This document shows positions 152 through 61,162 of a stretch of 64,000 bases of DNA, piece by piece; position 1 is the first letter of the stretch; each line of letters opens with the position of its first letter. The position numbers and the translations under genes were made by a program. The DNA is taken from the NCBI RefSeq assembly GCF_013315695.1, contig NZ_CP054353.1. One strand, 5' to 3'. Source of the stretch: Escherichia coli. Its GTDB lineage: Bacteria > Pseudomonadota > Gammaproteobacteria > Enterobacterales > Enterobacteriaceae. The notes under the pieces are model-generated. The model ran no database searches. It had not been told where the DNA came from and saw nothing but the letters and a program-made list of their open reading frames with translations.

Positions 152-1813
152 ATGTTAAAACGTATCAAAATTGTGACCAGCTTACTGCTGGTTTTGGCCG
201 TTTTTGGCCTTTTACAACTGACATCAGGCGGTCTGTTCTTTAATGCCTTAAAGAATGACAAAGAAAATTTCACTGTTTTACAAACCATTCGCCAGCAGCA
301 ATCCACGCTGAATGGCAGCTGGGTCGCGTTGTTGCAGACGCGTAACACCCTCAACCGCGCGGGTATCCGCTACATGATGGATCAGAATAATATTGGTAGC
401 GGTTCAACCGTTGCTGAGCTGATGGAGAGTGCCAGTATTTCGCTGAAACAGGCGGAAAAAAACTGGGCGGATTACGAAGCGTTGCCGCGTGACCCGCGTC
501 AGAGCACCGCCGCAGCGGCAGAGATCAAACGTAATTACGATATTTATCACAATGCGCTGGCGGAGCTGATCCAACTGTTAGGTGCAGGCAAAATCAACGA
601 GTTCTTTGATCAGCCGACCCAGGGATATCAGGACGGTTTCGAGAAGCAGTATGTGGCTTACATGGAGCAAAACGATCGGCTCTATGATATCGCCGTCAGC
701 GATAATAATGCCTCCTACAGCCAGGCGATGTGGATTCTGGTGGGCGTGATGATCGTCGTACTGGCGGTCATCTTCGCCGTCTGGTTCGGTATTAAAGCCT
801 CGCTGGTAGCGCCAATGAATCGCCTGATTGACAGCATTCGTCATATTGCAGGCGGCGATCTGGTGAAACCGATTGAGGTGGATGGCTCTAATGAGATGGG
901 GCAACTGGCAGAGAGTTTGCGCCATATGCAGGGAGAGCTGATGCGTACCGTCGGTGATGTGCGCAACGGGGCCAATGCCATTTATAGCGGTGCCAGCGAA
1001 ATCGCCACCGGCAATAACGATCTCTCTTCGCGCACCGAGCAACAGGCCGCTTCGCTGGAAGAGACGGCAGCCAGCATGGAGCAACTGACCGCAACGGTGA
1101 AACAGAACGCCGAGAATGCGCGCCAGGCCAGCCACCTGGCGTTAAGTGCTTCTGAAACGGCGCAACGTGGCGGCAAAGTGGTGGATAACGTAGTACAGAC
1201 TATGCGCGATATCTCCACCAGCTCGCAGAAAATCGCCGATATTATCAGCGTAATTGACGGCATTGCCTTCCAGACCAATATTCTGGCTTTGAACGCGGCG
1301 GTTGAAGCAGCGCGTGCGGGTGAGCAAGGGCGCGGTTTTGCGGTGGTTGCGGGAGAAGTGCGTAATCTGGCCCAGCGTAGCGCCCAGGCGGCTCGTGAAA
1401 TTAAAAGCCTGATTGAAGACTCGGTGGGGAAAGTGGATGTTGGCTCTACGCTGGTCGAAAGCGCCGGGGAAACAATGGCGGAGATTGTCAGTGCTGTGAC
1501 CCGCGTGACGGACATTATGGGCGAAATAGCTTCTGCTTCTGATGAGCAGAGCCGTGGTATCGATCAGGTTGGCTTAGCGGTCGCTGAGATGGACCGGGTA
1601 ACTCAACAGAACGCTGCGCTGGTGGAAGAATCTGCCGCCGCCGCCGCGCTGGAAGAGCAGGCCAGTCGCCTGACCGAAGCTGTGGCAGTGTTCCGGATTC
1701 AGCAACAGCAGCAACATCAGCGTGAAACATCGGCTGTGGTAAAAACCGTGACGCCAGCTGCGCCGCGTAAAATGGCCGTAGCAGATAGCGGGGAGAACTG
1801 GGAAACGTTTTAA
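152..1813 (+). CDS. tsr: Methyl-accepting chemotaxis protein I (serine chemoreceptor)
   Basis: 553-aa ORF; N-terminus [27 protein letters not shown] with TM segment, HAMP and MCP signalling domain; ATG at 152. Confidence 0.95.
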
Positions 1814-1824
1814 TCGCCATAAAA

Positions 1825-1854
1825 ATGCCCGATAAGCAAAATGTTATCGGGCAT
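1825..1854. terminator. Hairpin between convergent tsr and lgoT (likely bidirectional terminator)
   Basis: Inverted repeat atgcccgataa / ttatcgggcat read directly, located between the two convergent stop codons. Confidence 0.6.
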
Positions 1855-1861
1855 AGGGAGA

Positions 1862-3223
1862 TTAATCTTTCCGTGGGGCGTTGATCGGCTGACGAACCAG
1901 GAAGATGTACGTCAGTGCACCCGCCGCAGTGACGCAACCGCAGATGATTAGTGCCAGACGGAATGAATGGGTGGTATCAACAATAAAACCAGTAATGATC
2001 GGCGCGAAAGAGGCGCAGATGAAGCTGGCAAAGTTCTGGATACTGCCCACCGACGCCGTCATGCGAGAAGCAACTGCGACGTGGATCAAGCCCCAGCAGG
2101 ATGTTCCGGCAAAGTGAATACAAAACAGTGCCATGCCAATCAGCAGAACCGCTGTCATGGATGTTGTCGCTTGCGGTACGACCAGCGTAAAGGCGGCAGA
2201 ACAGAACATCCCGGCAATAATGCAGATCTTACGGCTTTTAATCGGAGCCATTCCCCCTTTGACCAGCCAGTCGGTAACGTAACCGTTGACCAGCATCCCG
2301 GCAGCCCCAAACAGGAAAGGGATAGCCGCCATCAATCCTGTGCTTTTTAAATCTAGGTTATAGGCTGTTTGCAGGTAACCAGGAAGCCAGGCCAGATACA
2401 GCCACGCAGTGTAGTTGATGCCACTGAATCCGAGCATCATTCCCCACATTGTGCGGTTACGGAACAGGCTGCGCCATTCGGCAAAACTGAGCGGATCTCG
2501 GCGGGCATTGACGCTACCTGCATTGAGATAAGCTTGTTCAACGGCAGTCAGTTCTACGTGCTCGCGGTTGCGATAGAGCATATACCAGCCGATGGCGAGA
2601 AAAATCCCCAGTACACCAATGGTAATAAACATCCCGCGCCAGCCCATCACCAGCATCATCGCCGCCAGAATCGGTGGGCTTACGGCAACGCCAATGGTAG
2701 AAGCTGCGTTGAAAAAGCCCATCGGGCGTCCGCGCTCTTTGATGTTGAACCAGTCGTTAATGACTTTTACACCGCATGGGTTCATCGGCGCTTCACCAAT
2801 CCCCATACCAATACGCACCAACACGAACTGCGTAAAGCTGTGCACCATGCCAGACATGGCCTGGAACAGTGACCAGAAGAACATCCCCAGTCCCAGCATC
2901 AGGCGTGGGCCTTTACGATCCAATAGTGGGCCGCAAGGAAGTTGCGCAATCCCGTAAGCGAGTGAAAACACGGAGAGCAAAGCGCCGATTTCGGTGGCAC
3001 TTAATCCCAATTCTTCACGAATCGTTAAATTTACTACCGACAGCGAACTGCGGTCGAGATAATTGATTACCGCCGCAAAAAATAATAACAACATGGCGGT
3101 GGCTTGAATGCGTTTAATTCGGGTACTGCGTTGAACTAATCCATCTGGTGGCACGGGAATATCTGCCGACGAAGATGGAGTAAATGAAGAACGCGGATCG
3201 ATGGTGATATTTTCTTTTTCCAC
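1862..3223 (-). CDS. lgoT: MFS-family L-galactonate transporter
   Basis: 453-aa ORF, multi-pass hydrophobic membrane protein with MFS-like motifs; position next to tsr as in E. coli. Confidence 0.85.
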   Translation of the reverse strand: MEKENITIDPRSSFTPSSSADIPVPPDGLVQRSTRIKRIQATAMLLLFFAAVINYLDRSSLSVVNLTIREELGLSATEIGALLSVFSLAYGIAQLPCGPLLDRKGPRLMLGLGMFFWSLFQAMSGMVHSFTQFVLVRIGMGIGEAPMNPCGVKVINDWFNIKERGRPMGFFNAASTIGVAVSPPILAAMMLVMGWRGMFITIGVLGIFLAIGWYMLYRNREHVELTAVEQAYLNAGSVNARRDPLSFAEWRSLFRNRTMWGMMLGFSGINYTAWLYLAWLPGYLQTAYNLDLKSTGLMAAIPFLFGAAGMLVNGYVTDWLVKGGMAPIKSRKICIIAGMFCSAAFTLVVPQATTSMTAVLLIGMALFCIHFAGTSCWGLIHVAVASRMTASVGSIQNFASFICASFAPIITGFIVDTTHSFRLALIICGCVTAAGALTYIFLVRQPINAPRKD

Positions 3224-3257
3224 GCCGGACTCCTATATTTATAATTTTAATTGTTTA

Positions 3258-3274
3258 CGTAATTGTGCATTACG
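3258..3274. promoter_or_regulatory. Perfect palindrome cgtaat-N5-attacg upstream of lgoT (candidate GntR-type operator)
   Basis: Read directly: cgtaattgtgcattacg, about 35-50 bp upstream of lgoT start, containing the GT..AC core typical of GntR/FadR-type sites. Confidence 0.35.
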
Positions 3275-3325
3275 CAAGGTTGACATTAACGGCAGGTTAA
3301 AGTTTTAGGACTTTACTACCGCTCA

Positions 3326-4520
<1,195 letters not shown>

Positions 4521-4649
4521 CTTGTGAGTCCATTAAAACCCGATTTAAAACATTTTTATGCGTGTGTTTTCACAAAACAGATTTTCCGTTCCGCTGCCAT
4601 TTTTCATTTTCATTGATATCTAAGGCAACAAAAAATGGAGAGCCGAATC

Positions 4650-5808: not shown

Positions 5809-8100
5809 TTACCCTTCACGTTCTACCACTTTAATTTCCACCATGCCGATCCCGAGCTTACGCGGCGAGTGTCCGAGGATATTCCCTTCGTTGGTTGAGA
5901 CAGGTTCCGGCGGCACAATTACCAGTGTGTCGGCATCGGTTGGGTTATCGAAATGCAGTGTGGTGGTGGTCACTTCATTGCCCAGCACAAGAGTTTGTTC
6001 TTCATTGCCTACGCGTACCGGAATAGGACGGCTGGCGTTATTGCCGTATGCTTTGGCGGTAATCACCAGGTCAAATTTCTTCGGCAGCGGATGCTTGTAC
6101 TCGATTTTTACTTCATCGCCCAGCTGCGCGTTGGACCAGCGGCCCCACGACTCCGGACGGGAAATCCCGCGAAACTGTTTCACCTCTTCTGGCGCACCGG
6201 CGACGTTAAAGATGAAACTGTCGGCTTTGTAGCGAATATCGTTATCAACAATCTTCAGCGTATCGACATTGCCTTTGTAACGCGCCATGTCGATGACCGT
6301 ATCTTTAAATGCCGTTTTGCCCTTCCATGTTGTTTTGTCAACATGCTGAACAATTTGCTGACCGCCAAGCTGCCCCTGCGAGACACACCAGTCGGTGGAA
6401 AGTGCCAGTTCCGGAGCCCAGAGTTGTGCCATCTTGTAGCAACGGTCAACCCAGACGAAATTGTCGCGTGGAGCGAAATCGGCCAGCTGGAAACGCAGCG
6501 GTGCTGAGTATTCGCTTTCCGGCAGCGGTTCCACGCGTTTGTCTGAAACCCGCAACAGCAGCGGCAAACGGAAATGGCTACCCGAGAAGGCAATCATGTT
6601 TTTCTGCTGGTCGATGGTGAACTCTTTCATCTCTTTAGGGAATTTCCACAGGCGGATGATATCTGGCTTCCACGCCAATGTTTTCTCTTTGATATTGAGG
6701 AAGATTTCCGACATCGACTGCCCGGATAAACTGCTACGACCAAGTCCGAGATAGTTATCGCCACCGAGAATGTCCAGCACCGTCGCGCCGTTATCCATCG
6801 TGTTACGCTTCACTGCCAGCGTCTCTTGCTGCGGCTTGTCGCCACGAATGACAAAAAACAGGTTATTGCGATCCTGCTTATTGAGGTATTTCCACGCCGT
6901 GTTGTTCATCGCTAAATGGTCAGAAGAGACGACGATGACGGTATCTTTAAACCACGGTGACGCTTTGATTTTGTTGATAAACGTCGCGATGTTCTCCTGG
7001 CTGCAACTTACCGCGCTGAATGACTGATTAGGCTTACCGTCAAAATCATATTTTTTGCGGTTACAGGTGCGCGAGATAAAACCATCCGGGTGATGGGTAT
7101 CGACCGTCAGGGTAAACAGTGAGAATCGCTGACCTGAGCGGGAAAGCTCTTCAAACTTTTTCCACGCTTCATCGAGAACGGTATCGTCGTAGAATCCCCA
7201 GTCGTTGCGATAGTGCGGGTCGGCCACCACGCTTTTCAGCTCTTCTGAGCCGTATAAGTGGTCGAAGCCGTGCGATTTCAGGAACACATCTTTACCGGCA
7301 AAACGCAGATTCGCGCCCTGCACGAAATAGTTCTGATAACCCGAGTTTTTCAGGATATCGCCCAGACAGATGTTCTGCGGGAAGAAGCTGGAGACAGAGG
7401 CGGAGGCGTTGCCTTCAAAGGGGGCAAACAGCGGTATGCCGCACTGAGAAGCCACCATGCCCGCAATCGTGTAATCCGTTCCTGGCAGCTGCTGCGTGTG
7501 GCTGAAATCCAGGCCTTCATTTTTCAACGCGCCCAGTTCAGGCGTGAGATCCGGGAAAGCTTCGTTATCAAAATAGGTTCGCTCGAGACTTTCGCCGTAG
7601 ATATAAACCAGGTTGAGTTTCGGGTCAGGGATAGTTTTCGACGGCTCTTTATAATAAGCCGCAAAGTCCGGGTCGCCGTCGCGTGACTGGGATTTCACCA
7701 GTTCCGTTATCTGACGAAATGCCGGGCTGGCATCCACTGAACCCAGCGCCAGTAAGAGCGCCAGCAGGCTGTAACCAAAATGGTGCGGATGATGACGACG
7801 ACGGCGCAGGATCCAGCCCAGCGCACCGAACACCGCTGTCAGCCCCAGCACAATGCCGATACCCGGCAGGATGTATTTGCTGACGCCAGCACCGGTCAGG
7901 CTGTTGGTTAAGGTATAGAGAACCGCGTCGTTAATACCATCGCCAGTAAAATAGTCGCTGGCAAACAGGGTGATATTTAAAACGACAAATAGCCCCAGCA
8001 CCGTTAATGTGGCTGCAAACCACCAGGTGTTACGTCCCGCTTTCCATGCGTAAATCAGCACAGAGGCGAGAAAAAGGGCGAAAGAGAGTAGTTCTGACAA
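5809..8100 (-). CDS. opgB: Phosphoglycerol transferase I (osmoregulated periplasmic glucan biosynthesis)
   Basis: 763-aa ORF, N-terminal TM helices plus sulfatase-like domain; matches MdoB/OpgB length. Confidence 0.9.
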
Positions 8101-8353
8101 CGGGCGATCCTCACTAAACCGGGCCGTTTAGCCAACGTTTAAGCTTTTTGAGAAGCACAATGTAATGGCGTCGCCATATTGCTGCAATTCTAGTGTCAAA
8201 AAAATGCGATGTTGTTAGGAATTAGTTTATAAACAGACTTTTTTGATCGCGGTCGCTTCCCGTGTAACAGGGGGAAAACCGTCCAGGAGCAGGGAAAAGG
8301 GCAGGAGAGAGCCGCGTCAGCCGGGTAACAGCTAAAACGCGGCGTTTCGCGGT

Positions 8354-8848
8354 TCAGGAAATGAAGTTCAGCCCCTGCTTTAACACCAGATCGCAGGCTT
8401 TGGTTTTCACCTTTTCTGCCAGCGGAGTCGTTCCGATGTTATCCAGATTGAGTTGCTGACCATCTTTGGTTTTCAGCAAACCCTGAATACCGTCCAGATA
8501 GTTGGTGTCTTCTTTTTGCTCTTCACTGTTCAGGCCCAGCTTTTCCAGCACCTGATTCTTGATGTTTTCGGCATCGGTTACCGAAGCCAGCTTTTGCTTC
8601 GCGCAGTATTGCAGAATGCCTGCGGCGTTGTTCATGTTATCTGCGCTTAAGGCCTGGTTCCCGCTGCTAAGCAAGTTAGTTAATGACGCGAGCGACCAAC
8701 CGCCTTCCTGTGTCGTGCTGTTTTGGTTGCCAAGTTCGCTGGCGGCGCTGGAGAGCGCATCTTTCTAGGACGCAGCATGCACCCCGGTGGAAATTAATGC
8801 GCTGGCGGCAATGGCACAGCACAGAAGATGTTTAACAGTTTTCATCAT
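8354..8848 (-). pseudogene. yjjA: yjjA interrupted by in-frame amber codon (TAG at 8765-8767) after the signal peptide
   Basis: Minus-strand ATG at 8848 gives MMKTVKHLLCCAIAASALISTGVHAAS then TAG; reading continues in the same frame to the stop at 8354 (total 164 codons). Track shows only the distal 106-aa piece. Confidence 0.7.
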
Positions 8849-8896
8849 CATTACTCAAGGTGGAATTGTGTCGCAGTATACCGCCAGAAACGGGGA

Positions 8897-9634
8897 TTAA
8901 TACTCTTTACCTGTTACACGGCTACGGTAGCTATCCCAGTTGAAGATCACCCACAAACTGTTACCCAGGCGCATACGGTCCATCACGCGTTCGCCCAGCA
9001 ACTTGGTCATCTCTTCCATATTACTGTTGGTCAGCATCCCGGTTGGGCGTTTGGAAGAAGAGCGGCGATCGACGATCTGGTTGATGATCACTTTTTCGTA
9101 TTTCGATTCGGTCTGCACGCCGATCTCATCGATCACCAGCAGATCAACGTTGCTCAGATCGTTAAGCAGTTGTTCTTCGCTGGTACCGCTATTCCTGAAG
9201 GTATCTTTCATCGCCGACATAATATCGGCCACGGTGATGATCAATACGGATTTACCGCGTAGCAGCAGCTCATTGCAGATTGCCGCCGCCAGATGGTTTT
9301 TGCCGGTTCCTGGCTTACCAGAAAAGATGAAGCTGGCGATGTTGCCGTCAAACTCTTCGACATACTGGCGCGCTTTGCTTAACGCATTCATCTGCCCTTC
9401 ACACTCAACGCGATAGTTCTCAAAGGAGCAGTTCTGATGCAGTGGACGAATACCGGAGCGGTTAAAGGTGCGCTGCATTTTCATCGCCCGATTTTCACGT
9501 TCGAGAGCGGCGGAGCGGATCGCCCCTTGTTCTTTCTGCCAGGCCAGTAGTTCTTCACCCGTTTTAAACGCAGGTTTGATATGGGCAGGCATCATTTTTT
9601 GCAGGCGTTGCATCAGGTCGCCAACGTTTTTCAT
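8897..9634 (-). CDS. dnaC: DNA replication helicase loader DnaC
   Basis: 245-aa ORF with Walker A GKPGTGKNHLAAAI; adjacent to dnaT. Confidence 0.95.
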   Translation of the reverse strand: MKNVGDLMQRLQKMMPAHIKPAFKTGEELLAWQKEQGAIRSAALERENRAMKMQRTFNRSGIRPLHQNCSFENYRVECEGQMNALSKARQYVEEFDGNIASFIFSGKPGTGKNHLAAAICNELLLRGKSVLIITVADIMSAMKDTFRNSGTSEEQLLNDLSNVDLLVIDEIGVQTESKYEKVIINQIVDRRSSSKRPTGMLTNSNMEEMTKLLGERVMDRMRLGNSLWVIFNWDSYRSRVTGKEY

Positions 9635-9636
9635 CG

Positions 9637-10176
9637 TTACCCTCTGAATCCTGGTGGAATTTGGCTGTCAGGTTCGCTGACCGTATTCACATCTCGTTTC
9701 GGCAGTCCGCCGTTGCTGGCACGGCCGATTTGCAGGCTGCGCGCCAGTTTTTGTTGCCACTGTACATGGTGAAAGACTTTACCTTCCGCCTGCCAGTAGG
9801 CAATGAATGAGGCCAGTTCTTCGGTGGTCACCGGCTCTCTTAGCGCCACGCCCCATAGCGCCGCCAGGCGGATAAAGTCGGCATCGGGTTGCCAGTCCGG
9901 ATACATGGCGAATTTCCCCATGGGTACAGCAACGGGAGCGGCTTGCGGTTCCTGATAGAGTTGATCGTCCAGAGCGACATCGCTTCCCGGACGCGCCAGC
10001 TTTTCTTCCAGCGCCAGCAGTTCAGCCAGGCGTGCAGGCGTGACGGCATAAAACGCCGGGGCATTGTTAGCAAATACGGCAACCACACCGCCTTCAGCTT
10101 TTGCCAGAACGGTTTGGTGATCGTGTACCAGGGCGTCAATACCAACGACGTCCGGGGTCAAAACTCTGGAAGACAT
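9637..10176 (-). CDS. dnaT: Primosomal protein DnaT
   Basis: ORF ...[23 protein letters not shown]...; immediately upstream of dnaC in same orientation. Confidence 0.9.
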
Positions 10177-10283
10177 ACTGTTTCTCAAATATGGAACGAT
10201 GAACGAGAAGGGAGATAACTTTTATAGTAACACATGGAGGAGAGGAGGCTGTCTCTCATCCGTGTGCTTTAAGCGAGGCAATT

Positions 10284-10757
10284 TTATACGCGAGGGCGCT
10301 TGCGGTACAACCATAATCCAGGAATGGAAAGACCGATGGATAACGCACCAACAATCGATGAAGCTGTAAGAAAGTTGGTTAACAGGGTAATCATCAATGA
10401 CTCGCTGTAACCTAACTGGCTGATTTTTACCGCCGAAATCATTGCGGTATAAGCCGATATGCCAGGGAACATAGGGATAACGGCCGCCACGGTAAACACT
10501 TTCGGATGCGCCAGATACCAGCGCGACCATTGAATACCAATGGTGCCGACCAGCATAGAAGCCATAAAAGTTGACCACTCAATATTCAGCCCGCTGGTCA
10601 TTAAGATCATTCGTGAACCATGACCAATCGCGCCAAGCAGCGCACACCAGCGTAACGCCCGAACGGGAACGTTGAACACCATCGCAAAGCCGACCGCTGG
10701 AATGGCGGCGAGGATCATATCCTGCGCCAATGTAAACAGAAACTCGATCACACCCAT
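10284..10757 (-). CDS. yjjB: Inner-membrane protein YjjB (putative succinate exporter subunit)
   Basis: Hydrophobic ORF of about 157 aa overlapping the end of yjjP. Confidence 0.8.
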
Positions 10758-14464: not shown

Positions 14465-14701
14465 ATGTTGCAACGTACGCTGGGCAGTGGCTGGGGAGTG
14501 TTGCTGCCGGGATTGCTGATTGCAGGGCTGATGTATGCGGATTTATCGCCGGATCAATGGCGGATTGTCATTCTGATGGGATTGGTATTGACGCCGGTGA
14601 TGCTGTATCACAAACAGTTACGGCATTACGTTTTGCTACCATCGTGCCTGGCGCTTATTGCTGGCATCATGCTGATGATAATGAATTTGAATCAGGGGTG
14701 A
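14465..14701 (+). CDS. yjjZ: Small membrane protein YjjZ
   Basis: 78-aa ORF from ATG 14465 (MLQRTLGSGWGVLLPGLLIAGLMY...); track ORF starts further upstream. Confidence 0.7.
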   Translation: MLQRTLGSGWGVLLPGLLIAGLMYADLSPDQWRIVILMGLVLTPVMLYHKQLRHYVLLPSCLALIAGIMLMIMNLNQG

Positions 14702-14739: not shown

Positions 14740-14826
14740 TGGTGCGAGGGGGGGGACTTGAACCCCCACGTCCGTAAGGACACTAACACCTGAAGCTAGC
14801 GCGTCTACCAATTCCGCCACCTTCGC
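14740..14826 (-). tRNA. leuV: tRNA-Leu (CAG), tandem copy 1
   Basis: Reverse complement reads GCGAAGGTGGCGGAATTGGTAGACGCGCTAGCTTCAGGTGTTAGTGTCCTTACGGACGTGGGGGTTCAAGTCCCCCCCCTCGCACCA, 87 nt; gene-name assignment among the copies is arbitrary. Confidence 0.95.
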
Positions 14827-14860
14827 ACAGTCATCTTACTTTTTTTGATATCGCCTCGTT

Positions 14861-14947
14861 TGGTGCGAGGGGGGGGACTTGAACCCCCACGTCCGTAAGG
14901 ACACTAACACCTGAAGCTAGCGCGTCTACCAATTCCGCCACCTTCGC
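14861..14947 (-). tRNA. leuP: tRNA-Leu (CAG), tandem copy 2
   Basis: Identical 87-nt sequence and identical 34-bp spacer to copy 1. Confidence 0.95.
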
Positions 14948-14981
14948 ACAGTCATCTTACTTTTTTTGATATCGCCTCGTT

Positions 14982-15069
14982 TGGTGCGAGGGGGGGGGAC
15001 TTGAACCCCCACGTCCGTAAGGACACTAACACCTGAAGCTAGCGCCTCTACCAATTCCGCCACCTTCGC
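14982..15069 (-). tRNA. tRNA-Leu (CAG)-like, divergent tandem copy 3 (88 nt)
   Basis: Same unit but with a 9-C run instead of 8 in the T-stem/acceptor region and one D-arm substitution (GGTAGAGGCGC versus GGTAGACGCGC). Confidence 0.75.
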
Positions 15070-15097
15070 CCAGTGCGAGCAATATCAACGTGGTTTT

Positions 15098-15184
15098 TGG
15101 TGCGAGGGGGGGGACTTGAACCCCCACGTCCGTAAGGACACTAACACCTGAAGCTAGCGCGTCTACCAATTCCGCCACCTTCGC
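15098..15184 (-). tRNA. leuQ: tRNA-Leu (CAG), promoter-proximal copy 4
   Basis: Identical 87-nt tRNA-Leu sequence; 28-bp spacer to copy 3. Confidence 0.95.
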
Positions 15185-56345: not shown

Positions 56346-57782
56346 TTACTCCTGCGAAACGTCATCCCACGCGTCTGGAGAAAGCTGGCGACCGATCTCC
56401 GGATAACGCAACGGATCAAACACCGGGCGCACGCCGAGTTTACGCTGGCGTAGATAATCACTGGCAATGGTATGAACCACAGGCGAGAGCAGTAATATGG
56501 CGGTCAAATTGGTAATAGCCATGCAGGCCATTATGATATCTGCCAGTTGCCACATCAGCGGAAGACTTAGCAAGGTACCGCCGATGACCGTTGCGAAGGT
56601 GCAGATCCGCAGACACCAGATCGCTTTAGGGTTGTTCAGGCGTAAGAAGAAGAGATTGTTTTCGGCATAAATGTAGTTGGCAACGATGGAGCTGAAGGCA
56701 AACAGAATAACCACGAGGGTAACAAACTCCGCACCCCAGGAACCCATTAACACCCGCATCGCCTTCTGGATAAGCTGAATACCTTCCAGCGGCATGTAGG
56801 TTGTGCCGTTACCCGCCAGTAATATCAGCATGGCGCTTGCCGTACAGATGACCAGGGTGTCGATAAAAATGCCAATCATCTGGACAATTCCTTGCGCTGC
56901 CGGATGCGGAGGCCAGGACGCCGCTGCCGCTGCCGCTGCCGCGTTTGGCGTCGACCCCATTCCTGCCTCATTGGAAAACATACTGCGCTGAAAACCGTTA
57001 GTAATCGCCTGGCTTAAGGTATATCCCGCCGCGCCGCCTGCCGCTTCCTGCCAGCCAAAAGCACTCTCAAAAATAGACCAAATGACGTGGGGAAGTTGCC
57101 CGATATTCATTACGCAAATTACCAGGCTGGTCAGTACCCAGATTATCGCCATCAACGGGACAAACCCCTGCATGAGCCGGGCGACGCCATGAAGACCGCG
57201 AGTGATTGCCAGCAGAGCAAAGACAGCGAGAATAATGCCTGTCACCAGCGGAGGAAAATCAAAAGAAAAACTCAGGGCGCGGGCAACGGCGTTCGCCTGA
57301 ACTCCGCTGAAAATTATGCCGTAAGCGATGAGCAAAAAGAGGGCGAACAGAACGCCCATCCAGCGCATCCCCAGCCCGCGCGCCATATACCATGCCGGTC
57401 CGCCACGAAACTGCCCATTAACGTCACGTTCTTTATAAAGTTGTGCAAGGGAACATTCGGTAAACGAGGTCGCCATGCCGATAAACGCGGCAACCCACAT
57501 CCAGAAGACGGCACCTGGTCCACCGGCGGTAATAGCCAGCGCAACGCCAGCCAGGTTGCCGCTACCCACGCGCGCCGCAAGACTGGTACACAATGACTGA
57601 AATGAGGTTAAACCGCCTGGCTGTGGATGAATGCTATTTTTAAGACTTTTGCCAAACTGGCGGATGTAGCGAAACTGCACAAATCCGGTGCGAAAAGTGA
57701 ACCAACAACCTGCGCCGAAGAGCAGGTAAATCATTACCGATCCCCAAAGGACGCTGTTAATAAAGGAGAAAAAATCTGGCAT
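56346..57782 (-). CDS. yaaJ: Alanine/glycine:cation symporter family transporter
   Basis: 478-aa multi-TM ORF containing a poly-Ala stretch. Confidence 0.9.
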   Translation of the reverse strand: MPDFFSFINSVLWGSVMIYLLFGAGCWFTFRTGFVQFRYIRQFGKSLKNSIHPQPGGLTSFQSLCTSLAARVGSGNLAGVALAITAGGPGAVFWMWVAAFIGMATSFTECSLAQLYKERDVNGQFRGGPAWYMARGLGMRWMGVLFALFLLIAYGIIFSGVQANAVARALSFSFDFPPLVTGIILAVFALLAITRGLHGVARLMQGFVPLMAIIWVLTSLVICVMNIGQLPHVIWSIFESAFGWQEAAGGAAGYTLSQAITNGFQRSMFSNEAGMGSTPNAAAAAAAASWPPHPAAQGIVQMIGIFIDTLVICTASAMLILLAGNGTTYMPLEGIQLIQKAMRVLMGSWGAEFVTLVVILFAFSSIVANYIYAENNLFFLRLNNPKAIWCLRICTFATVIGGTLLSLPLMWQLADIIMACMAITNLTAILLLSPVVHTIASDYLRQRKLGVRPVFDPLRYPEIGRQLSPDAWDDVSQE

Positions 57783-59736: not shown

Positions 59737-61162
59737 TAATGCCAGTCAGTTAAGCAACTGACTGGCTCTTTTTCGGGGCTGTGGGGTATTTCCAGGGCCT
59801 CTCCTTTACCACTCTCGGGAAGGCCCTTTCCCTTCTTGTCGGTAATTTCACAAGTTGTCCCATACTTGCAAGATCGCGCATCAGCTCCGGTATACGTCCC
59901 GGTGAAGCGCCCTGCAATGTCATCAGCATTCTCATCACCATTCCGCATGATTCTGAGAAACTCAGTTGATTCGGCCAGTAACCTTTCAGATGTTCCGCCA
60001 TTTTAATCATCTGATATCTCACCAGATTATAAGCCAGTAAGACACCCCACAGCTCTTGCTCCACAAGCTCCGGTTTTTTACTTCTCAGCGTCAGCCTGCT
60101 CAGTTGCATCGTCTGTTTTATCTCCCTGTATCCCAGTTCGATTTCCCAGCGATGACTGTACAGATCCGCCATTTCTCCTCCGGGGAAGCGCATGGCGTCC
60201 GTCATCGACGTCAGCAGATGGCAGACTTTTCCTTTGCGCGTCACGGTCAGCAGGCGGGCTGTCACTTCATTTCCCAGTCCCGGCCACTTTTTTCGTGCCT
60301 GCGGGCTGGTTTTCAGCTTCACCAGATGATCGCCTTTACCCAGTTTTCTGATCTCTTCATATTGCGCTCCCTTTCTGAGAGGTATCATCCAGTGGCGGTG
60401 TTCTCCCGCCAGGCTCCAGGCATTTAACAGTCCCAGTGAGTAATAACCTTTATCCATTAACGTCAGAGTGTTATCGCCGGTTTGTTCTATAAGTTGCTCA
60501 GCAAGCTCATTTTCGCTGTTCTTCATCGTGCCGAAGGCTGCAGCCGTCAGCAGATGGCTGGTCAGTTCCATCTGGCAGACCATTTTGACCTGCGGGTAGA
60601 GCGCCGGGTTCCCGGCATGTGTCTGGCGGGGGAAGGCTGCATCGTTCTCTGGTGTATCCGGTGTGCGCCAGAACACACCATCGATGGCCAGCAGGGTCAG
60701 GCCGCACCAGTGCGGATGCGGCGTGGCGTTATGCCAGAGCTGCGCTGTTTTCGTGAACACGCGGCGGACAGCCTCACTTCCCAGGCGCTGGCGGGCCTGA
60801 ATAACGGCACTGGGGGCAACGAAGGGGCGATTGCCCGGCAGCATGATGTCCAGGCGATTCACAATCTGGTGAAGAGGTTCTTTACGCTCAAGCGCCATGC
60901 CAACAATACACCAGACCATCATTTCGAGGGGAAGACGGCGCTTGCGTAGCGTTACAGTACCTGATTCGGCAAGGCAACGAGAGATGAGTTCGGGGTCGAG
61001 GTAATCCCCCAGAGAAGTCAGTGGGTTACGCAGAGAATCGTAACGGGATACCAGATCAAGAGCCTGTCCAATGTGCATAAAAAAATCCGGAAACAAGTGA
61101 GCGTTTCCGGATTCTTACACAGCCACTGGATCGGTCAACTGATCCTTAACTGATCGGCATTA
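59737..61162 (-). mobile_element. IS4 insertion sequence, complete (1426 bp), flanked by 12-bp direct repeats
   Basis: 18-bp terminal inverted repeats taatgccagtcagttaag / cttaactgatcggcatta; identical 12-mer ccccgggcgggg at 59725-59736 and 61163-61174. Confidence 0.9.
59750..61078 (-). CDS. insG: IS4 transposase (DDE, IS4 family)
   Basis: 442-aa from [16 protein letters not shown]...; contains HRWEIE...YREIK motif of IS4-family transposases. Confidence 0.9.

What the first reader, a model, noticed from the sequence alone, without database searches (positions are those of the whole stretch)
8354..8848. yjjA carries an in-frame amber codon immediately after its signal peptide
Reading the minus strand from ATG 8848 gives a signal peptide (MMKTVKHLLCCAIAASALISTGVHA-AS) and then TAG at 8765-8767, after which the same frame continues open to 8354, giving a 164-codon gene equal to the expected YjjA length. 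A single TGG to TAG change (Trp to amber) would explain it. The gene is either a recent pseudogene or expressed only in a suppressor background.
Basis: seen in the sequence. Interest (0 to 1): 0.45.

Follow-up and report, generated by a model that had tools for sequence, protein, structure and literature searches.

The report
yjjA amber pseudogene at Dcm hotspot
A small E. coli gene of unknown function (yjjA) is knocked out in this one clone by a single-base change to a stop codon; this is an ordinary, already-annotated pseudogene, and the change sits exactly at a methylated cytosine that is a classical mutation hotspot.

Summary
On the minus strand, 8848..8354 is E. coli yjjA (164 codons, last gene of the dnaT-dnaC-yjjA operon), with TAG at 8767..8765 (codon 28) just after a plausible signal peptide. 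The ancestral codon is TGG. The TGG version of the surrounding 61-mer is exact in 4,871 of about 5,417 complete E. coli genomes. The TAG version is exact in one, strain MSB1_4I, where RefSeq already marks yjjA as a pseudogene ("internal stop"). Three non-identical assemblies of this clone share the TAG, and nothing else in the gene has decayed, so it is a real and young null allele. The mutated base (window 8766, + strand CCAGG to CTAGG) is the Dcm-methylated inner cytosine of a CCWGG site. yjjA has only two such sites. Their amber products (W28am, Q65am) recur on at least 3 and at least 6 unrelated backgrounds in public assemblies. No other nonsense position was seen. The clone has intact dcm and vsr. 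supE and supF suppressors are absent. The synonymous products of the same two sites are far commoner (24 and 10 genomes against 1 and 0), which suggests the amber alleles are selected against. Verdict: an ordinary pseudogene made by a textbook mechanism; low interest.

The parts
8354..8848 (-). yjjA pseudogene (DUF2501 protein, 164 codons; last gene of the dnaT-dnaC-yjjA operon)
   Evidence: Translation. PGAP annotation of the identical sequence in MSB1_4I as yjjA, pseudo, 'internal stop'. Operon structure from PMC2500167.
8765..8767 (-). In-frame amber codon TAG (codon 28), ancestral TGG (Trp)
   Evidence: The middle base at 8766 is T on the + strand here and C in AF3.
8765..8769 (.). Decayed Dcm site: + strand CTAGG, ancestral CCAGG (coding strand CCTGG->CCTAG). 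The changed base 8766 is the inner, methylated cytosine.
   Evidence: Motif enumeration and + strand context CGCATCTTTCTAGGACGCAGC.
8653..8657 (-). Second and only other Dcm site of yjjA (coding strand CCAGG, codons 64-65). It is intact here. Its deamination product Q65 CAG->TAG is the other recurrent amber allele in public assemblies.
8774..8848 (-). Predicted signal-peptide coding part (codons 1-25, MMKTVKHLLCCAIAASALISTGVHA). The only product left is a 27-residue peptide.
   Evidence: Sequence inspection; no predictor was run.
8363..8599 (-). DUF2501 domain coding part (residues 84-162), entirely downstream of the stop
   Evidence: Pfam PF10696, E = 4e-31 on the repaired protein.
8354..8635 (-). 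Residual 93-codon ORF from Met72 that gene callers report when the 5' part is disrupted. It has no signal peptide, so it is not a functional substitute.
   Evidence: Exact product on record on 616 contigs.
8897..9634 (-). dnaC, intact upstream operon gene. The nonsense codon lies in the last gene of the operon, so no co-transcribed gene downstream can suffer polarity.

Best explanation
yjjA in this clone is a genuine, young loss-of-function allele. A single G:C->A:T transition turned Trp28 (TGG) into amber (TAG). Translation stops three codons after the predicted signal-peptidase site, and none of the DUF2501 domain is made. The transition hit the inner cytosine of a CCAGG/CCTGG Dcm site on the non-coding strand. 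Shown: the base change, its motif position, its clonal restriction, its recurrence elsewhere, and the presence of dcm and vsr. Inferred: that this particular event arose by hydrolytic deamination of 5-methylcytosine to thymine which escaped Vsr very-short-patch repair. Also inferred: that the allele is neutral to mildly deleterious, not adaptive, and that only trace near-cognate read-through of UAG could yield full-length protein.
For: TGG is the ancestral codon, and the TAG is the only difference from SC516 over 801 bp. The TAG 61-mer is exact in 1 of 5,416 complete genomes and the TGG 61-mer in 4,871. PGAP marks the gene as a pseudogene with 'internal stop'. Three distinct assemblies share the TAG. 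The window differs from MSB1_4I by a 2,178-bp IS-adjacent deletion, 6 SNPs and a 6-bp indel, and from GCA_900448625.1 by a 1-bp indel. yjjA has exactly two CCWGG sites, and each gives one synonymous and one amber product on deamination. W28am occurs on 3 backgrounds that are 93-111 differences apart over 5.7 kb. One of them (L012) differs from CFT073 only at this base over 1,401 bp. Q65am occurs on at least 6 backgrounds. In the lesion-agnostic sample (the 93-aa look-up), all 5 independent nonsense events fall on these 2 of 24 possible upstream nonsense substitutions, or 2 of 7 transitions. That gives P about 4e-6 and 2e-3 respectively. dcm and vsr are intact in MSB1_4I. CCWGG is an established hotspot for G:C->A:T at the methylated base and is countered by Vsr (PMC13250602, PMC2715241, PMC3527292).
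Against: A single historical mutation cannot be assigned to deamination with certainty; a replication error at the same base would look identical. No reads were available, and Dcm motifs are also where nanopore consensus errors concentrate (PMC6591954). The sequencing technologies of the three assemblies could not be verified with these tools. Some of the 616 contigs carrying the truncated product are clearly error-ridden assemblies (L014, L015), so the raw counts are inflated.
Confidence: 0.82

Rival explanations
1. The TAG is a sequencing or assembly artefact. Nanopore basecallers systematically miscall Dcm-methylated CCWGG motifs, and an unpolished error could create exactly this substitution.
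For: About 70% of ONT consensus errors with default models lay in CCAGG/CCTGG (PMC6591954). The site is such a motif. The read technology of the source is unknown.
Against: The window has 184 CCWGG sites. None of the 174 covered by the MSB1_4I comparison differs, and 8766 is the only methylated-position difference from AF3 over 66 sites, so there is no systematic Dcm error. Three non-identical assemblies carry the TAG. Only 1 of 5,416 complete genomes, many of them nanopore-based, shows it, so the site is not error-prone in general. The same change occurs in a 2013 Broad short-read-era assembly, KTE188 (L012).
Confidence: 0.05
2. The gene is still expressed because the strain carries an amber suppressor tRNA.
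For: Nothing positive. TAG followed by A is a context known, from general knowledge, to be comparatively well suppressed.
Against: The window has no CUA-anticodon tRNA, only four tRNA-Leu(CAG) genes. glnV and glnX in MSB1_4I have CUG. The supF allele is exact in 0 of 5,425 genomes. The supE allele is exact in 155 genomes, and all 12 listed are K-12 laboratory derivatives. The same amber recurs in unrelated wild backgrounds, which a hotspot explains without any suppressor.
Confidence: 0.02
3. Loss of yjjA is adaptive in some niches, and the recurrence reflects positive selection for null alleles and not only mutation bias.
For: At least 9 independent amber origins, plus frameshift alleles in otherwise clean assemblies (L010, L013).
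Against: Every nonsense event sits at the two Dcm sites and none at the other 22 upstream nonsense substitutions. Amber alleles are much rarer than the synonymous products of the same motifs: 1 and 0 genomes against 24 and 10. yjjA is retained in 5,421 of 5,426 genomes. All of this points to purifying selection.
Confidence: 0.08
4. The TAG is a programmed recoding site (for example pyrrolysine-type read-through).
For: None.
Against: Orthologues have TGG, not TAG, in 4,871 genomes. E. coli has no known Pyl machinery (general knowledge).
Confidence: 0.005

Closest known systems
lacI amber hotspots at CCAGG sites (Coulondre, Miller, Farabaugh and Gilbert 1978; cited from general knowledge) and the 5-methylcytosine / Vsr very-short-patch repair system (Lieb 1991; Lieb and Bhagwat 1996, listed among the references of PMC2715241)
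   Same: The change is a G:C->A:T transition at the inner, Dcm-methylated cytosine of CCWGG and creates an amber codon. The same substitution recurs independently. The host carries dcm and vsr.
   Different: It was seen in natural isolates and public assemblies, not in a laboratory mutant screen. The W28 case arises from the cytosine on the non-coding strand (TGG->TAG), whereas the lacI cases are CAG->TAG. The Q65 allele is the exact lacI-type case.
Ordinary strain-specific nonsense pseudogenes flagged 'internal stop' by NCBI PGAP
   Same: A single in-frame stop in an otherwise intact, conserved gene. It is already annotated this way in NZ_LR898874.1 (JMX41_RS22185).
   Different: Nothing material. 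The only addition here is the hotspot context and the evidence of recurrence.
Nanopore Dcm-motif consensus errors (Wick et al. 2019, PMC6591954)
   Same: Same motif and the same kind of apparent substitution.
   Different: Such artefacts come in large numbers across many CCWGG sites of one assembly. Here 1 of 184 sites is affected, and independent assemblies agree.

Membership tests
Nonsense-mutation pseudogene | Intact full-length orthologue is the norm in the species | tested here: met
   yjjA is covered at 80% or more in 5,421 of 5,426 genomes. The TGG 61-mer is exact in 4,871.
Nonsense-mutation pseudogene | A single in-frame stop truncates the product before its functional domain, with no alternative start restoring it | tested here: met
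   The stop is at codon 28 and DUF2501 spans residues 84-162. The first downstream in-frame starts (TTG at 8674, ATG at 8635) lack the signal peptide.
Nonsense-mutation pseudogene | The base call is real (read support) | not testable with these tools
   No reads were available. Indirect support: three non-identical assemblies agree, and there is no excess of Dcm-site differences.
Dcm 5-methylcytosine deamination hotspot mutation | C->T (G->A) transition at the second C of CCWGG | tested here: met
   + strand CCAGG->CTAGG at 8766.
Dcm 5-methylcytosine deamination hotspot mutation | Host encodes Dcm methyltransferase (and Vsr) | tested here: met
   dcm (JMX41_RS15445) and vsr (JMX41_RS15440) are intact in sibling genome MSB1_4I. 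Actual methylation of this site was not measured.
Dcm 5-methylcytosine deamination hotspot mutation | The same substitution recurs independently more often than other equivalent substitutions | tested here: met
   W28am is on 3 backgrounds and Q65am on at least 6. In the lesion-agnostic sample, 5 of 5 nonsense events fall at 2 of 24 possible substitutions.
Dcm 5-methylcytosine deamination hotspot mutation | The rate depends on dcm and rises without vsr | not testable with these tools
   This needs mutation-rate measurements in dcm and vsr mutants.
Amber-suppressed gene in a suppressor strain | A tRNA with CUA anticodon in the genome | tested here: not met
   None in the window. glnV and glnX are CUG in MSB1_4I. 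The supF allele is absent from all genomes. serU, leuX, tyrU and trpT were not examined.
Programmed stop-codon recoding | The stop codon is conserved at the position in orthologues | tested here: not met
   The TAG 61-mer is in 1 genome and the TGG 61-mer in 4,871.

The most novel reading that the evidence does not exclude
The two Dcm sites of yjjA act as built-in mutational 'fuses'. They make this conserved periplasmic protein unusually easy to lose, and its loss is advantageous in some host-associated clones. Under this reading, recurrent W28am and Q65am alleles would be adaptive contingency events and not just mutational noise.
Probability: 0.05. Interest if true: 0.4.

Novelty: already known. 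Interest (0 to 1): 0.14.

Why it matters
It matters little for biology at large. One clone of E. coli has lost a non-essential periplasmic protein of unknown function, and the public annotation already says so. There are two modest points of value. First, it is a clean natural example of the classical Dcm hotspot making amber codons. It comes with an internal control, because the synonymous products of the same motifs are more than 30 times commoner, which suggests yjjA is kept by selection even though its function is unknown. Second, it is a practical warning: an apparent substitution at CCWGG is also where nanopore consensus errors concentrate, so such 'pseudogenes' should be checked against reads before being believed.

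Tried and rejected
- Exact-product look-up of the 106-aa ORF from TTG 8674 found nothing. Gene callers use Met72 instead.
- I first assumed the window was the MSB1_4I record. This was rejected: the window has 2,178 bp that the record lacks, plus 6 SNPs and a 6-bp indel. It is not exactly GCA_900448625.1 either, because of a 1-bp indel.
- The promoter/terminator scan of 8000-10400 gave nothing useful on the minus strand near yjjA, so the operon structure is taken from the literature.
- The PDB sequence search found no relative of YjjA (best E = 0.087). The DUF2501 and yjjA literature gives expression data only, so the function that is lost remains unknown.
- A literature search for strain MSB1_4I found nothing relevant, so its sequencing method is unverified.
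- The first coordinate guess for dcm in MSB1_4I landed in csg-flg-fab and revealed a large inversion relative to K-12. The second guess found dcm and vsr.
- Recoding and phase-variation readings were rejected. The TAG is not conserved, and reversion (A->G) would not be at a hotspot.
- The metagenome and GTDB scans, structure prediction and the large protein searches were not used, because they would not change the verdict.

Full report
**What is there**

Reading window 8848..8354 on the minus strand gives a 495-nt frame. Its translation is MMKTVKHLLCCAIAASALISTGVHAAS*KDALSS...LNFIS*, with one internal TAG at 8767..8765, codon 28. The flanking genes are opgB (5809-8100), dnaC (8897-9634) and dnaT, all on the minus strand. 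So this is E. coli yjjA, the last gene of the dnaT-dnaC-yjjA operon (PMC2500167). The repaired protein carries Pfam DUF2501 at residues 84-162 (E = 4e-31), entirely downstream of the stop. The N-terminus looks like a Sec signal peptide with a VHA|A cleavage site. That is by inspection only, since no predictor was available. What can be made is therefore a 27-residue peptide. The next in-frame starts (TTG 8674, ATG 8635) would give a protein without an export signal.

**Which genome, and what is the ancestral codon**

An 801-bp query around the gene matches 5,421 of 5,426 complete E. coli genomes at 80% coverage or more. It matches one at 100%: strain MSB1_4I (NZ_LR898874.1; human rectal swab, Australia). 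Many others match at 99.9%.

- A 61-mer centred on the TAG is exact in only that one genome out of 5,416.
- The same 61-mer with TGG is exact in 4,871.
- Strain SC516 differs from the window over the gene by this single base, and SC516 and EDL933 both have TGG.

**Is the base call real?**

The window is not the MSB1_4I record:

- It contains 2,178 bp (1147-3324: the tsr 3' end plus lgoT) that MSB1_4I has lost next to an ISKpn26 element.
- It also differs by 6 SNPs and a 6-bp indel in the second half.
- It is identical over 18.6 kb to GCA_900448625.1 except for a 1-bp G-run indel at 14497.

So three non-identical assemblies of one clone share the TAG. The closest genome with TGG is isolate AF3 (OZ547117.1; UK blood culture). 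It differs by two bases in the 5.7 kb around yjjA, one of which is 8766. The gene shows no second lesion. The allele is thus real with high probability, confined to one clone, and young.

**Why this codon**

On the + strand the site reads CTAGG at 8765-8769, and the ancestral sequence is CCAGG. The changed base, 8766, is the inner cytosine of a CCWGG motif, the position methylated by Dcm. yjjA has exactly two CCWGG sites:

| Site | Deamination on one strand | Deamination on the other strand |
|---|---|---|
| Codons 27-28 (CCTGG) | S27 TCC->TCT (synonymous) | W28 TGG->TAG (amber) |
| Codons 64-65 (CCAGG) | Q65 CAG->TAG (amber) | Q65 CAG->CAA (synonymous) |

CCWGG is an established hotspot for G:C->A:T at the methylated base, because 5-methylcytosine deaminates to thymine. 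The resulting T:G mismatch is repaired, incompletely, by Vsr very-short-patch repair (PMC13250602, PMC2715241, PMC3527292). The classical demonstration is the set of lacI amber hotspots (Coulondre et al. 1978, cited from general knowledge). The sibling genome MSB1_4I has intact dcm and vsr.

**Recurrence elsewhere**

Gene callers report a 93-residue ORF from Met72 when the 5' part of yjjA is broken. That exact product is on record on 616 contigs. I read the loci on the longest contigs:

- **W28am** (the same G83A) is present on three backgrounds that are 93-111 differences apart over 5.7 kb. These are the window clone, a metagenome scaffold (L009), and KTE188 (L012). L012 differs from CFT073 by this base alone over 1,401 bp.
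- **Q65am** (C193T) is present in L008 and L011. A look-up of its 64-residue N-terminal fragment found further carriers, for at least six backgrounds in all.
- **Remaining lesions** were frameshifts, two of them in obviously error-ridden assemblies (L014, L015).

In the lesion-agnostic sample, all five independent nonsense events fall on 2 of the 24 possible nonsense substitutions upstream of Met72, or 2 of 7 transitions. That gives P of about 4e-6 and 2e-3 respectively. This is the signature of a mutational hotspot. Selection for loss would be expected to produce more varied lesions.

**Internal control for selection**

The synonymous products of the same two motifs are found in 24 genomes (C81T) and 10 genomes (G195A). 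The amber products are found in 1 and 0. These genomes are not phylogenetically independent, so this is suggestive only. Still, the asymmetry fits purifying selection on yjjA, as does retention of the gene in virtually all genomes. The amber allele in this clone is most likely neutral to mildly deleterious and transient.

**Rival explanations**

- **Nanopore artefact.** ONT consensus errors concentrate in CCAGG/CCTGG (PMC6591954), so this had to be considered. It is unlikely, though not excluded without reads:
  - The window has 184 CCWGG sites. None of the 174 covered by the MSB1_4I comparison differs, and 8766 is the only methylated-position difference from AF3.
  - Three assemblies agree on the TAG.
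  - The TAG is seen in only 1 of 5,416 complete genomes, many of which are nanopore-based.
  - The same change is present in a 2013 Broad assembly.
- **Suppressor background.** This is essentially excluded for the classical suppressors; serU, leuX, tyrU and trpT were not examined.
  - The window holds only four tRNA-Leu(CAG) genes.
  - MSB1_4I has CUG in glnV and glnX.
  - The supF allele is exact in none of 5,425 genomes.
  - The supE allele is exact in 155 genomes, and all 12 listed are K-12 laboratory strains.
- **Adaptive loss.** This is disfavoured by the restriction of nonsense events to the two hotspots and by their rarity relative to the synonymous products.
- **Programmed recoding.** This is excluded because the TAG is not conserved.

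**Consequences**

Because yjjA is the last gene of its operon, the stop should not affect dnaT or dnaC. opgB lies 253 bp downstream, beyond the operon as described in PMC2500167. What is lost is an exported DUF2501 protein of unknown function. No solved structure is related to it, and the literature offers only expression and proteomic detection.

**Verdict**

The feature is an ordinary nonsense pseudogene that the public annotation already records, produced by a textbook mechanism. The Dcm-hotspot context, its recurrence in unrelated lineages, and the synonymous-versus-amber asymmetry are tidy additions, not surprises. Interest is low.

Noticed in passing
window 14740-15184: Four tandem tRNA-Leu(CAG) genes. 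MSB1_4I also has four, but the closest TGG-bearing relative AF3 has only two, and K-12 has three from memory. This is copy-number change in the leuQPV-type array, presumably by unequal recombination.
   Followed up: partly
window ~3325-4575 (IS), with 1147-3324 beside it: An IS5-like ISKpn26 sits between lgoT and lgoD. It replaces about 1,035 bp that hold the GntR/FCD regulator lgoR in other E. coli (L020). In MSB1_4I a further 2,178 bp next to the IS (tsr 3' end plus lgoT) is deleted, leaving a truncated tsr.
   Followed up: partly
window 59750-61096 (-): The IS4 transposase is intact in the window. It carries W130stop (TGG->TAG, not at a Dcm site) and R338K in MSB1_4I, where PGAP marks it 'internal stop'.
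   Followed up: partly
window 56577-57461 (yaaJ): Three of the seven differences between the window and MSB1_4I fall in the single gene yaaJ: A108T, a two-codon Ala-Ala indel at 56937-56942, and one synonymous change. That is an unusual concentration. The direction of change was not determined.
   Followed up: no
window 14497: A one-base G-run length difference (GGGG here and in MSB1_4I, GGGGG in GCA_900448625.1) changes the called length of yjjZ (DUF1435) from 78 to 84 residues in that assembly. It is probably a homopolymer error there.
   Followed up: no
MSB1_4I chromosome, L027 (2.08-2.13 Mb) and L028 (3.09-3.14 Mb) against L004/L006 (4.39-4.45 Mb): Gene order runs forward relative to K-12 around csg-flg-fab and dcm, but reversed around thr-dnaK-yjjA. 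This implies a large inversion spanning the terminus region in this assembly relative to K-12.
   Followed up: no
E. coli genome collection: The supE (tRNA-Gln CUA) allele is exact in 155 of 5,423 complete genomes, and the 12 listed are all K-12 laboratory derivatives. The supF allele is exact in none.
   Followed up: partly
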